A stretch of 64,000 nt of DNA from Octopus sinensis (lineage: Eukaryota), in NCBI RefSeq assembly GCF_006345805.1, contig NC_043015.1, positions 17,794,001-17,858,000 on the forward strand, in the 5' to 3' direction. Positions 1-3,000 of the stretch are shown one piece after another; the stretch's first letter is position 1, and every line of letters starts with the position of its first letter. A program made the position numbers.

Positions 1-3000
1 TTGTCTTCCCTGTTGGATGAAATGGATATTTACACGTTTTTAGTCAGTTGTTAATTTGAACATCCATAGATTAATATCTGCATAAAATATTAACACATAT
101 GGAATCCCAAAGGGTTGCAGTTTTGGGAAAAAATAACTAGGTAAAGTATTCAATGCAGAGTCTGAGTGAGATTGGGGAAAACAGAAGTGACAAATGTGAG
201 GAATGAATGTTCATATTTCTAGCTCAAAGGAGCAGAGGCCACTTACGGTGTTAATAGAAATGACAGAAAAAAGAATATGCGAGCCAGTGATTTTAAGTGT
301 GTTGGTGTTTGGACATTTTATGTGTACTAGTAACAAATCTAGATATATCATTGATACTCCATTGTGTACTGGTATCACAGCACTACATGTCAATTGTACC
401 AATGGTACTCTGTTGTGAGTCTTACATATGCTGTACAGAGGATCAATAACTGATCAAAACTGAGGGATTTCCTGGCCATTAAGATTAAACTTAGTCTTAG
501 AGATTTGATTTCGATGATTTCATATTTAGAAGGTTACCTTGAGAGATTATTGGTTTATGCTCTTCTTTTGCTGAACAAACCACACTTCCCTAGCTGTCCT
601 TTTGCTCATCTACCAATCCTGATTGAGCAACATAGGCAGAGATAAATGTTGCTGTTGTATTTTTCAAGACAAATCTAAGGTTAATTATCCTGTCACACAC
701 TCTTTCTTAATCAGTTCATCTATCCATTTTTTTTTTGTTCAAAGTATGCCAACTTCCTTCACAGCATCACTATCATCTACCCAGAAGAATTTGTACCCAT
801 GTCCCTTGCCTGTGAGGAGTCTGGTTAAAGCTCTCCTCTATCATACCTTTTGCATACAGCTCATGTCTACTACATGCCTCTGTTCTAGCATTGTACCAAT
901 CTCACCAGACCAACCTTTCATTATGCTTATGTTGATTGGGGCTGCTTTAAAGTTGTAAACTTGACAGGAAGAGCAAGTAGAGAGCTGGTGGACAACTTTC
1001 ACTAGTTGAAGAGAAAGTTTGTGGAAATGTTTGCTTGCAGGCAGATAGTTCTGGTGCATAATCAGACAGTCAAATATTTTTACCACTCAATTGAACCACT
1101 AATTCCATAGGCCCACAAACATTCAAGGTCAAATAAGTAAATGAAAGCATAAAAAGGTTGTTATTGTGTAGAAAGGGGATATCATGCAAATCTAACATAA
1201 AGGTGGGGTAATAAGGGGAGAAAGGGAAGCGAAAAATACTGAAGAAGTTTCTAAAAGATTAATGAAGGTCATACTTAAAACTTGAATATATTACTTGAAA
1301 ATTATACTTAAAATAAATATGTTTAACTACTGCATGTACATGTGGCCATATTTCTAAAAGGAAAAGATTATACTATTGGCAACAAATGAATTATGAATGA
1401 GAAAATGGGAGGCAGTGACAAACATTGAGCAAATATATTAAATATTTAAAGAAATAAAACAATCAGTACAACTTAGCTTTGTAGCAATATTGTTTTCTTC
1501 ATTGCTATCTTCACTGTTTGAGAAAAATATTAAGAATGATCTCGTTTGAGATTACAAACATCTTTGGCTAGTTTAACCGTGTTGTGTCCACTATTTTGAT
1601 TGGTTGGCATCTAAGCACAGTCTGTCTCTATACTTCGCGCCAGTGTGTAAACTGACCAATCACGGCTTTCGGATAGGACTTTTCATTTGAGCCATCTTAA
1701 CTCTTTAAATAGGTTGATCATATCACGATTCATGTCTTTTGGCTTAAGACCTTCTAAGGTTTTGGTCGGAGACCACACAACACAGAGCTTACTCAACCAT
1801 ATTCCAGTTTGAAAGGCAGACGACAGCCAAGCCAAACCTAATATGAAGACGCTATTGTAAACTAAGCGACAGACATCACGTCGGGGTCACCACTTATGTT
1901 AGAATATGATCGCACGAGAGGGAGTTTTGGTGACATATTTTCTCCTCTTATTCAACAGCGTCCGGCCGCATCCCAACATAACATAACTTAATGTTATATA
2001 AGCCATAATACATATTTAATATACAGTGCGAAAGTAAATATATAAAGGAATGCCAAAAACCGTTCTACTATTATAAAGAGAAGATAGATTTTATTCACAG
2101 TGTACAAAGTGATTTGTTGTTATTAGTGTAGTATTGTGTCTTAGATGCATGCTTAATATATTTGTGTCTGTGTGTTTGTGTGTGCGACAAAAGTACAGAA
2201 ATAAGGTTTATGCAAATACAACAGAGCATAAAAGAAATCTCAACATTTTGAGTTTAAATGAAGTTACTTTAGAGTTATTTTACCAGTTCATGTAGTACAC
2301 GATAATGAGTTCTATACAAGATTTGAGTCTCGGAGCTGAGATTAGTTAAGTCACTTGTTGTGCATATTTTTCTCTTGATATAGATATTCTTTCAGATATA
2401 TATACTGCAACTGTTTTTTCGTGGTGAGATTTTCACACTAACAGCATGAGTTGAATCTGTATTTATCTTGTGTACAAGTTAAATCTTCGCAGATGGAGAC
2501 GATGTTGGTGATGACGTTATGTCTGTCGCTTGGTTTACTATAGTGTCTTCATATTAGGTTTGGCTTGGCTGTCGTCTGCCTTTTGAACTGGAACATGGTT
2601 GAGTAAGCTCTGTGTTGTGTGGTCTCCGACCAAGACCTTAGAAGGTCTTAAACCAAAAGACATGAATCGTGATATGATCAGCCTATTTAAAGAGTTAAGA
2701 TGGCTCAAATAAAAAGTCCTATCCGAAAGCCGTGATTGGTCAGTTTACACACTGGCGCGAAGTATAGAGACAGACCGCGCTTAGATGCTAACCAATCAAA
2801 ATAGTGGACACAACACGGTTAAACTAGCCAAAGATGTTTGTAATCTCAAACGAGATCATTCTTAATATTTTTCTCAAACAGTGAAGATAGCAATGAAGAA
2901 AACAATATTGCTACAGCTTCATTGATATTTGTGTATATATACGGGATTTTTGATATTTGTGTATATATATGGGATGTTTGATATTTGTGTGTATATACGG

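What the first reader, a model, noticed from the sequence alone, without database searches (positions are those of the whole stretch)
1480..2915. A Gypsy LTR turned into a TIR element: apparent folded-back plus-strand strong-stop DNA, integrated with two U3 ends
Seen, on the minus strand: a complete LTR (2915-1897), 4 nt, then exactly 18 nt of tRNA-Trp PBS (1892-1875). This is followed immediately by the reverse complement of the LTR's first 395 nt, so 1480-1874 mirrors 2521-2915 (about 13 mismatches by eye). Both ends read TGTAGC and there is a 4-bp TSD (GCTT), the same TSD length as the related solo LTR and Gypsy in this window. At the fold point the LTR has TGGTGATGACGTTAT (2506-2520), which resembles the PBS TGGTGACCCCGACGTGAT (7 of the last 8 nt match). 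Established: plus-strand strong-stop DNA is U3-R-U5 plus 18 nt of primer tRNA, halting at m1A58. Inference: instead of making the second strand transfer, the strong-stop 3' end annealed to the PBS-like site in its own or a sister LTR and copied back to the U3 end. Integrase then accepted the two U3 att ends. If this recurs, it is a route from LTR retrotransposons to MITE-like non-coding elements.
Basis: partly seen in the sequence, partly recalled or inferred. Interest (0 to 1): 0.85.

Follow-up and report, generated by a model that had tools for sequence, protein, structure and literature searches.

The report
Retrotransposon LTR with inverted copy end
A single, dead, non-coding insertion made of one retrotransposon LTR, its tRNA primer site and a back-to-front copy of the LTR's first 395 bases looks like a misfired reverse-transcription product that was still pasted into the genome, a rare natural record of how such copying goes wrong.

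Summary
On the minus strand, 2915-1480 reads: a complete 1019-nt LTR, 4 nt, an 18-nt primer binding site (PBS) complementary to tRNA-Trp, then the reverse complement of LTR nt 1-395. Both ends read TGTAGC and are flanked by a direct 4-bp duplication. The inverted arm begins at the last PBS base, where 7 of 8 bases are complementary between the PBS 3' end and LTR nt 396-403; the chance at a random junction is about 3.5e-4.

Best reading: plus-strand strong-stop DNA was diverted. Its 3' end was extended on a plus-sense LTR strand, and integrase inserted a DNA with two U3 termini.

Not shown:
That gives a hairpin with only one double-stranded end.
- Whether it paired with a sister strand instead.
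- Whether two cDNA pieces were inserted together and joined by host repair.

The whole PBS-like 15-mer is not beyond chance. The site used is not the best available.

The window holds one copy. No eukaryote genome collection was available, so recurrence, an empty site and read support are untested. No known route lets this element amplify, so the MITE idea is unsupported. Ten literature searches found no described precedent. Verdict: real, a new variant of a known kind, moderate interest.

The parts
1480..2915 (-). Whole element, 1436 bp: LTR + 4 nt + PBS + inverted copy of LTR nt 1-395. Non-coding.
   Evidence: No ORF of 70 aa or more lies inside it. No Rfam family at gathering score in 1-10000.
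2916..2919 (.). Target-site duplication, copy 1 (GCTT on the + strand)
   Evidence: read directly.
1897..2915 (-). Complete LTR, 1019 nt, TGTAGC...TAACA
   Evidence: End-to-end alignment with the solo LTR 8004..6961. BLAST 68.8% identity over 995 columns.
2513..2520 (-). LTR nt 396-403: the 8 nt that are complementary (7 of 8) to the last 8 nt of the PBS. This is the point where the inverted copy starts.
1893..1896 (-). 4-nt spacer (TAAG) between LTR and PBS
1875..1892 (-). 18-nt primer binding site, complementary to the 3' end (with CCA) of tRNA-Trp as printed in two papers
1480..1874 (+). Inverted arm: reads as LTR nt 1-395 on the + strand, with 13 mismatches to the full LTR
1476..1479 (.). 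Target-site duplication, copy 2 (GCTT on the + strand)
6961..8004 (-). Related solo LTR (1044 nt, starts TGTAGC, ends ACA) with its own 4-bp duplication TGAG at 8005-8008 and 6957-6960. Comparator that fixes the LTR ends.
58278..58845 (-). Third related LTR piece (starts TGTAGC), preceded by a purine-rich tract at 58850-58858. About 71% identical to the LTR over the matched stretches.
58893..60770 (-). Broken pol remnant of a Ty3/Gypsy-type element. RT and RNase H domains lie in separate ORFs (at least one break, kind not determined), and no integrase domain was detected. It links this LTR group to Gypsy-type elements only indirectly.
   Evidence: RVT_1 5.6e-23, RT_RNaseH 4.1e-23. (105 of the 120 listed relatives also carry the integrase core domain PF00665).

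Best explanation
This is a dead-on-arrival insertion of an aberrant cDNA from a Ty3/Gypsy-type LTR retrotransposon.

Proposed steps:
1. Plus-strand strong-stop DNA was made as usual: the LTR, the 4-nt spacer and the 18-nt copy of the tRNA-Trp primer.
2. It did not make the second strand transfer. Instead, its 3' end paired through 8 nt (7 matched) with nt 396-403 of a plus-sense LTR strand. That strand was either its own, or more simply a sister plus strand.
3. The 3' end was extended to that strand's 5' end, adding an inverted copy of LTR nt 1-395.
4. If the partner was an incomplete plus strand ending near nt 403, both 3' ends can be extended on each other. That gives at once a blunt double-stranded 1436-bp DNA with a U3 terminus at each end.
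5. Integrase joined these two U3 termini to the chromosome with its usual 4-bp stagger.
6. The copy cannot replicate. It has since decayed, about 3.3% between the arms, partly at CpG sites.

Shown by the sequence: the anatomy, the exact junction, the microhomology, the two U3 ends and the duplication.
Inferred: which enzyme extended the end (reverse transcriptase is my choice), whether the template was its own or a sister strand, and that this happened before integration.
For: Anatomy and coordinates.

The junction is at the strong-stop terminus:
- The junction lies at the last base of the 18-nt PBS, with 2 nt of ambiguity at most, because the PBS keeps its own base at the mismatch.
- The PBS letters equal the complement of tRNA-Trp's 3' end in two papers.
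- The 18-nt pairing of primer and PBS, and the strong-stop end at the PBS, are described in passages of PMC6088434.

Microhomology:
- Only 2 of 1034 positions of the 1041-nt strand reach 7/8.
- Shuffles give 3.5e-4 per position.

One integrase event:
- The inverted arm stops exactly at LTR nt 1 and is followed by a direct 4-bp duplication, not by inverted flank. That fits a template ending at the U3 terminus and an integrase cut.
- The related solo LTR has a 4-bp duplication of different sequence, TGAG. So there is a 4-bp stagger and no sign of a fixed target word.
- The LTR's first 12 nt and the reverse complement of its last 12 nt agree at 8 of 12 (letters, my count). A U3/U3 pair is therefore close to the natural U3/U5 pair.
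- Att sites are imperfect inverted repeats (passage).
- An LTR-retrotransposon integrase performs concerted integration in vitro with two copies of one and the same end (Ty1 U5 donor; passages of PMC8487063).

Precedent for the chemistry: self-priming by a strong-stop DNA 3' end is documented for the minus strand (passages).

Real genomic sequence: the arms differ at 14 positions, 12 of them transitions and 5 CpG-type. So both arms are real, separately decaying genomic sequence.
Against: - There is one copy only, and no reads, empty site or full-length parent could be examined.
- Pure fold-back gives a hairpin with a single double-stranded end. The sister-strand version needs a partner strand ending near nt 403, or trimming of its 3' tail. 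Nothing in the sequence shows either.
- The site used has a mismatch 3 nt from the primer end, while nt 180 and nt 243 offer perfect 6-nt terminal pairing and were not used.
- 589 of 2000 shuffled LTRs hold at least one 7/8 site, so such a site is common.
- The longer PBS-likeness is not beyond chance (568 of 2000 shuffles).
- The minimum-energy DNA fold leaves the last 11 nt unpaired rather than paired to nt 396-403.
- Polarised against the two other LTRs, 8 differences fall on the inverted arm, 2 on the full LTR and 4 are unresolved. This mild, non-significant skew would also fit two source molecules.
- In the review passages I read, self-priming is described only for minus-strand strong-stop DNA.
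- Ten literature searches found no described case.
Confidence: 0.55

Rival explanations
1. Two-donor integration plus host repair. Integrase paired the U3 ends of two separate cDNA pieces and inserted them together with a 4-bp stagger. One piece ended at the strong-stop terminus (LTR + PBS). The other was incomplete or resected. The cell then closed the gap by microhomology-mediated end joining of the two inner ends.
For: It yields exactly the same letters: two U3 ends, a 4-bp duplication, a junction at the PBS end and 7/8 microhomology. In-vitro concerted integration normally uses two separate donor molecules carrying the same end (passages). Trimming of the 3' tail beyond nt 403 is a normal step of such joining (established knowledge). 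The mild skew of differences toward the inverted arm, 8 against 2, would fit two source molecules.
Against: It needs a free double-stranded U3 end on a piece that stops exactly at the PBS, plus a second independent piece in the same complex. The PBS end shows no resection at all. No in-vivo example was found in my searches.
Confidence: 0.2
2. Two independent insertions of the same family in opposite orientation, followed by a deletion that removed everything between the PBS of one and LTR nt 395 of the other.
For: The window is rich in nested and broken mobile elements. A 3.5% difference between arms could be copy-to-copy divergence.
Against: It needs three coincidences: both outer flanks showing the same 4 bases in direct orientation (about 1 in 190-256), one deletion end falling within 2 nt of the PBS end, and 7/8 microhomology at the junction (3.5e-4 per position). 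No remnant of a second duplication, of internal sequence or of a U5 end is present.
Confidence: 0.06
3. Assembly or library artefact: a palindromic chimeric read or a collapsed inverted repeat.
For: Inverted duplications with short microhomology are a known artefact class (recalled). No read data could be examined.
Against: The arms differ at 14 of 403 positions with a transition and CpG bias. The flanks are not inverted. The repeat ends exactly at the LTR terminus with a direct 4-bp duplication. An artefact would not respect an LTR end, a PBS end and a duplication all at once.
Confidence: 0.04
4. A non-autonomous cut-and-paste DNA transposon with long terminal inverted repeats, of the integrase-related Ginger kind, not a retrotransposon product.
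For: Its ends fit the TGTNR pattern and it has a 4-bp duplication, as Ginger1 does (abstract and passages of PMC2836005).
Against: One 'repeat arm' is simply the start of a 1019-nt LTR that has a direct solo-LTR relative with its own duplication, and it is followed by a perfect tRNA-Trp PBS. Ginger1 duplications are CCGG or CCGT/ACGG in 99% and its repeats are 40-270 bp; here they are GCTT and 395-403 bp. There is no transposase remnant. The real DNA transposons in this window look different: Tc1/mariner type with DDE_3 and HTH remnants.
Confidence: 0.03
5. Normal architecture: full-length members of this family carry an inverted U3 segment after the PBS, and this is a truncated ordinary copy.
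For: No full-length member could be inspected, so this is not directly excluded.
Against: The inverted segment ends exactly at LTR nt 1 and is followed at once by the duplication and unique flank. So the element ends there, rather than being cut at random.
Confidence: 0.02

Closest known systems
Ty3/Gypsy-type LTR retrotransposons, their solo LTRs and 5' LTR-PBS ends
   Same: LTR with TGTNR...ACA ends, a 4-bp duplication, and a PBS for a tRNA 3' end 4 nt after the LTR. Related LTRs sit next to an RT-RNase H remnant whose relatives have the RT-RNase H-integrase order.
   Different: No second direct LTR, no polypurine tract and no coding region. The right end is an inverted U3 terminus instead of a U5 terminus.
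[quoted passage not shown]
   Same: A strong-stop DNA 3' end pairs with a complementary stretch of plus- or minus-sense DNA of its own kind and is extended by reverse transcriptase into a dead-end inverted product (passages of PMC6088434).
   Different: That case concerns the minus strand, a short TAR hairpin and in-vitro reactions, and the products are not integrated. Here the plus strand is involved, the arm is 395 nt, and the product sits in a chromosome with a duplication.
Ginger1 DNA transposons (integrase-related cut-and-paste elements)
   Same: Terminal inverted repeats that start TGTNR, and a 4-bp duplication.
   Different: Ginger1 repeats are 40-270 bp, its duplication is CCGG or CCGT, and a transposase gene or a matching autonomous partner exists. 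None of these holds here.
5'-inverted LINE-1 insertions ('twin priming'; recalled, no paper read)
   Same: A retroelement insertion with an inverted segment, made by a second priming event through short complementarity, and flanked by one duplication.
   Different: That is target-primed reverse transcription of a non-LTR element on the chromosome. No LTR, PBS or integrase is involved.
DIRS-type retrotransposons with inverted terminal repeats (search listing and abstract starts only)
   Same: A retroelement whose terminal repeats are inverted.
   Different: DIRS elements encode a tyrosine recombinase and use no DDE integrase. Here there is no ORF, there is a 4-bp duplication, and the repeat is a Gypsy-type LTR with direct solo relatives.
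Aberrant unintegrated retroviral DNA with LTR-containing inverted repeats (Olsen and Swanstrom, J Virol 1985; recalled only, not held)
   Same: As I recall it, defective DNA forms explained by misuse of strong-stop DNA.
   Different: I could not read the paper, so no feature could be compared. Those forms were unintegrated circles, not a chromosomal insertion.

Membership tests
LTR retrotransposon-derived insertion (Ty3/Gypsy type) | LTR bounded by TG...CA, with the Gypsy-like TGTNR start | tested here: met
   TGTAG...ACA. Pattern as stated in PMC2836005. The same start occurs in the two related LTRs.
LTR retrotransposon-derived insertion (Ty3/Gypsy type) | Short target-site duplication of fixed length | tested here: met
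   4 bp, GCTT, at 1476-1479 and 2916-2919. The solo LTR also has 4 bp.
LTR retrotransposon-derived insertion (Ty3/Gypsy type) | PBS complementary to a tRNA 3' end just after the 5' LTR | tested here: met
   18 of 18 letters equal those printed for tRNA-Trp in two papers. This species' own tRNA was not available.
LTR retrotransposon-derived insertion (Ty3/Gypsy type) | Second LTR in direct orientation, preceded by a polypurine tract | tested here: not met
   The only second LTR sequence is inverted and partial.
LTR retrotransposon-derived insertion (Ty3/Gypsy type) | Link to a pol gene with RT-RNase H-integrase order | tested here: inconclusive
   The link is indirect: a roughly 71% similar LTR piece lies next to an RT/RNase H remnant. 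105 of the 120 listed relatives of that remnant carry the integrase core.
Solo LTR | One LTR alone between the two duplication copies | tested here: not met
   The LTR is followed by a spacer, a PBS and a 395-nt inverted arm.
TRIM / LARD (non-autonomous LTR elements) | Two direct terminal repeats around a short PBS-PPT core | tested here: not met
   The repeats are inverted. Definition from a passage of PMC4717578.
MITE | Terminal inverted repeats and a duplication | tested here: met
MITE | Small size and many near-identical copies | tested here: inconclusive
   1436 bp. One copy in 64 kb. The genome could not be searched. The size criterion is recalled.
MITE | Ends matching an autonomous DNA transposon that can move it | not testable with these tools
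   No eukaryote genome collection was available. The Tc1/mariner remnants in the window have unrelated ends.
Ginger1 | TIRs of 40-270 bp starting TGTNR | tested here: not met
   The start fits, but the arms are 395-403 nt.
Ginger1 | 4-bp duplication CCGG or CCGT/ACGG | tested here: not met
   The length fits, but the sequence is GCTT.
DIRS | Tyrosine recombinase gene and an internal complementary region | tested here: not met
   No ORF of 70 aa or more lies in the element. The DIRS features come from abstract starts.

The most novel reading that the evidence does not exclude
Diversion of plus-strand strong-stop DNA onto a plus-sense LTR strand may be a recurrent side path of LTR retrotransposons. 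It would seed genomes with non-coding elements that carry two identical integrase-type ends. Such elements are the structural starting material from which integrase-related cut-and-paste transposons of the Ginger kind, or long hairpin small-RNA loci against the parent family, could arise.
Probability: 0.05. Interest if true: 0.9.

Novelty: new variant of a known kind. Interest (0 to 1): 0.5.

Why it matters
If the reading is right, this locus is a natural, integrated record of two points otherwise known mostly from test-tube work:
- A strong-stop DNA end can be misused as a primer on the wrong strand.
- An integrase will insert a DNA carrying the same (U3) end twice, with a normal duplication.

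It also gives genome annotators a defined pattern to look for: LTR, PBS, then inverted U3 ending at a duplication. LTR finders would miss it, and repeat finders could mislabel it as a DNA transposon. Read-through transcription across the two 403-nt arms would give a long hairpin RNA matching the family's promoter region. That is a possible source of silencing small RNAs (inference, untested).

As a single decayed copy it has no wider consequence by itself. The larger idea, a bridge from LTR elements to inverted-repeat elements, needs recurrence, which could not be tested here.

Tried and rejected
Second copy in the window. A BLAST of the element against the window gave only itself, the solo LTR (about 69%) and the third LTR piece (about 71%). 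There is no second junction.

Empty-site paralogue. The flanks 700-1479 and 2916-3700 have no second copy apart from a 150-nt repeat and the local 28-bp tandem repeat.

Other long inverted repeats in the window as possible recurrences. 51518-52577 and 14176-15780 turned out to be Tc1/mariner-type transposon remnants. I rejected them.

Direct repeats at 29912-30857 and 33802-34744 as the 'Gypsy'. They are 81% alike, 0 of 5 ORFs tested there have Pfam hits, and they are unrelated to this LTR.

PBS-likeness of the whole 15-mer. It is not beyond chance.

Thermodynamic fold of the 1041-nt strand. It does not predict the contact.

Polarising the arm differences. The result is not significant.

Rfam on 1-10000 found nothing. 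tRNA scan: 0 genes.

Literature. I ran ten searches. Judged from listings and the passages I read, none returned a paper describing an integrated LTR-PBS-inverted-LTR element or fold-back of plus-strand strong-stop DNA. This covers only the open library. Old virology papers are not searchable there, and supplementary catalogues of repeat surveys, which might list such structures, were closed and not requested.

Post-insertion fold-back inversion at a chromosome break (listing only, PMC7467729). I rejected it because such copying would run on into inverted flank, whereas here the arm stops at LTR nt 1 and a direct duplication follows.

Autointegration. I rejected it on established knowledge: its products are circles without free ends.

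Not done:
- No scan of genome contigs. It holds bacteria and archaea only, and a new typed junction string would have overlapped the string already typed.
- So recurrence in the source genome or its relatives, read support, the empty site, the parent element and the species' tRNA-Trp all stayed unchecked.
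Full report
WHAT IS THERE

Read on the minus strand, window 2915..1480 is a 1436-bp non-coding element. 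Its parts, in order:
- A complete LTR of 1019 nt (2915..1897), starting TGTAGC and ending TAACA.
- Four bases, TAAG (1896..1893).
- An 18-nt primer binding site (1892..1875).
- Directly after it, the reverse complement of LTR nt 1-395 (1874..1480).

The repeat finder reports the inverted repeat as 1480-1882 against 2513-2915. It is 403 nt long, ungapped, with 630 nt between the arms. The extra 8 nt are the overlap between the end of the PBS and LTR nt 396-403. The arms differ at 14 positions: 13 in the 395 nt and 1 in the overlap. Twelve of the 14 are transitions, and 5 sit in CpG/TpG/CpA contexts.

The repeat ends exactly at TGTAGC/GCTACA. The next four bases are the same on both sides in direct orientation (GCTT on the + strand, 1476-1479 and 2916-2919), and a fifth base does not match. 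From the local composition, a 4-bp match by chance is about 1 in 190-256 (my arithmetic).

No ORF of 70 aa or more lies inside the element. No Rfam family matches in 1-10000. The window has no N.

IS THE LTR COMPLETE, AND WHAT FAMILY IS IT?

A related solo LTR lies at 8004..6961. It is 1044 nt, has the same TGTAGC start and ends in ACA. Its own 4-bp duplication is TGAG, at 8005-8008 and 6957-6960. It aligns with the LTR from first to last base at about 69% identity. That fixes both LTR ends independently of the finding.

A third related piece starts TGTAGC at 58845, after a purine-rich tract. It runs to about 58278. Just upstream on the same strand lies a broken pol remnant (58893-60770):
- The RT domain scores RVT_1 5.6e-23 and the RNase H domain scores RT_RNaseH 4.1e-23, in separate ORFs.
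- No integrase domain was found among the 7 ORFs of that neighbourhood sent to Pfam; the other 3 ORFs of that call lie elsewhere.

A search for longer relatives of the RNase H piece gave 672 proteins at E <= 1e-10 among 3658 candidates. Of the 120 listed, 105 also carry the integrase core domain. The best named ones come from cestodes, at 58% identity over 51% of the query. So the LTR group belongs with Ty3/Gypsy-type elements, but only through this indirect link.

That Gypsy copy has no second LTR in the window.

THE PBS

The 18 letters occur once in the window. They are printed in two papers:
- As the antisense of a tRNA-Trp 3' end with CCA (one passage of bioRxiv 10.1101/400127).
- As the probe 'complementary to tRNA Trp' (one passage of PMC4635179).

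The window holds no tRNA gene, so the species' own tRNA-Trp was not compared. That plus-strand strong-stop DNA stops after 18 nt of the primer, at a modified base, is established knowledge that I recall. The passages I read state only that 18 nt of the primer pair with the PBS, and that the second transfer uses the PBS copies at the two 3' ends (PMC6088434).

THE JUNCTION

The last 8 nt of the PBS are complementary to LTR nt 396-403 at 7 of 8 positions. The element keeps the PBS base at the mismatch, so the switch lies within the last 2 nt of the PBS.

For the microhomology as a real feature of the junction:
- Only 2 of 1034 positions in the 1041-nt LTR-spacer-PBS strand reach 7/8 (nt 396, used; nt 180, not used).
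- Shuffles give 3.5e-4 per position.
- So microhomology at this junction is far more than a random breakpoint would show.

Against reading too much into it:
- 589 of 2000 shuffled LTRs contain at least one such site.
- Perfect 6-nt matches to the primer end exist at nt 180 and 243 and were not used.
568 of 2000 shuffles reach its local score on that strand, and 990 of 2000 on either strand.
- The minimum-energy DNA fold of the strand leaves its last 11 nt free rather than paired to nt 396-403.

HOW IT MOST LIKELY AROSE

Three features must be explained together:
- An inner junction at the natural 3' end of plus-strand strong-stop DNA.
- An inverted arm that stops exactly at the U3 terminus.
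- One direct 4-bp duplication around the whole element.

A chromosomal fold-back or inverted duplication would have copied on into inverted flank. Two separate insertions plus a deletion would need three coincidences. An artefact would not respect an LTR end, a PBS end and a duplication, and would not show 14 transition-biased differences between the arms.

The common core is therefore this: the strong-stop 3' end was extended on a plus-sense LTR strand whose 5' end was the U3 terminus, and integrase joined two U3 termini to the target. Both parts are plausible:
- The first 12 nt of the LTR and the reverse complement of its last 12 nt agree at 8 of 12 (letters).
- Att sites are imperfect inverted repeats (passage of PMC12789967).
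- Ty1 integrase carries out concerted integration in vitro with two copies of one end (passages of PMC8487063).

Three routes give the same letters:
This gives a hairpin with one double-stranded end and needs a further unexplained step.
(b) Pairing of the 3' ends of a finished strong-stop strand and an unfinished plus strand ending near nt 403, each then extended on the other. This yields the blunt two-ended 1436-bp DNA directly.
(c) Joint insertion of two separate cDNA pieces by their U3 ends, with the inner ends closed by host microhomology-mediated joining.

I commit to a pre-integration extension by reverse transcriptase, (a) or (b) with (b) the simpler, at 0.55. I give (c) 0.2. The sequence alone cannot separate them. 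Against the two other LTRs, 8 differences fall on the inverted arm, 2 on the full LTR and 4 are unresolved. This is not significant.

AFTER INSERTION

The element has no polypurine tract and no direct 3' R, so it cannot go through the normal replication cycle. No mechanism is known by which an integrase moves an integrated copy (established knowledge).

A TATA-like motif at LTR nt 225 and CCAAT-type motifs at nt 120 and 177 are shared with the related LTRs. This suggests that each arm holds the promoter, so the two would face each other (inference). Read-through RNA would fold into a 403-bp stem (inference).

The 3.3% arm divergence, with CpG-type changes on both arms, says the copy is old and decaying.

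COMPARISON WITH KNOWN KINDS

It is built from Gypsy-type parts. It is not a solo LTR, and it is not a TRIM or LARD, because its repeats are inverted (definition in a passage of PMC4717578). It is not a DIRS element, because it has no recombinase gene and does have a duplication (DIRS from abstract starts).

It resembles Ginger1 DNA transposons in its TGTNR ends and 4-bp duplication. It fails their 40-270-bp repeats and their CCGG/CCGT targets (abstract and passages of PMC2836005).

As a process it is closest to two things:
- By analogy, 5'-inverted LINE-1 insertions (recalled).

I also recall a 1985 J Virol paper by Olsen and Swanstrom on defective retroviral DNA with inverted LTR parts. It is not held, and I saw nothing of it.

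Ten searches of the open library found no description of an integrated element of this form. That is weak evidence of absence, because older and subscription papers and all supplements were out of reach.

VERDICT

Its core holds: a strong-stop end, two U3 ends and one integrase event. The fold-back detail is unproven. The MITE route is unsupported.

It is a new variant of a known kind, with one copy and moderate interest (0.5). Recurrence in the genome, read support, the empty site, the parent element and the species' tRNA-Trp stayed unchecked.

Noticed in passing
window 51518-52577: Tc1/mariner-type DNA transposon remnant. It has 233-nt inverted arms 95% alike with 594 nt between them, next to TA-rich flanks. 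An internal ORF piece matches DDE_3 at 1e-11. It shows what a real inverted-repeat transposon looks like in this genome.
   Followed up: partly
window 14176-15780: Second Tc1/mariner-type remnant. Its inverted arms come in two blocks (124 nt at 96% and 101 nt at 92%). The transposase is in several ORF pieces, matching HTH_Tnp_Tc3_2 at 1.8e-14 and DDE_3 at 9e-07.
   Followed up: partly
window 2922-3006: Three tandem copies of a 28-29-nt unit (93% alike), starting 3 nt from the element's duplication. No link to the insertion was seen.
   Followed up: no
window 37414-42749 (minus): Non-LTR retrotransposon remnant. One ORF has RVT_1 (2e-30) and zf-RVT, and another has an endonuclease/exonuclease/phosphatase domain. 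Between them lie 107-nt tandem repeats at 39809-40343 and long GT/AC-rich simple sequence.
   Followed up: no
window 57398-58105 (minus): An ORF with a GIY-YIG domain just at threshold (22.7 bits against a 22.6 cut-off), right below the third LTR piece. It is possibly a Penelope-type element that cuts that LTR short; the Penelope link is recalled.
   Followed up: no
window 61926-62966 (minus): A further reverse-transcriptase piece (RVT_1 1.5e-13, C-terminal part of the model) upstream of the Gypsy-type remnant. Whether it belongs to the same element was not resolved.
   Followed up: no
window 29912-30857 and 33802-34744: A pair of direct repeats, about 950 nt and 81% alike, 3.9 kb apart, in a GC-richer block (0.44-0.49). 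Related inverted pieces lie near 36600-36990. None of the 5 ORFs tested there has a Pfam match. Unexplained.
   Followed up: partly
window 20765-21491 / 22247-22959 and 39398-41641: A roughly 1.48-kb tandem duplication (blocks 85-99% alike), whose parts recur inverted about 17-20 kb away at 91-96% (D6, D7, D15, D16, I3, I4, I6, I7).
   Followed up: no
window 4290-4464 and 5968-6142: Direct repeats of 175 nt, 95% alike, 1678 nt apart, between the element and the solo LTR (D11). Not examined.
   Followed up: no
window 11030-11551: An ORF with the start of a DDE_1 endonuclease domain (7.8e-08), probably another DNA-transposon remnant.
   Followed up: no
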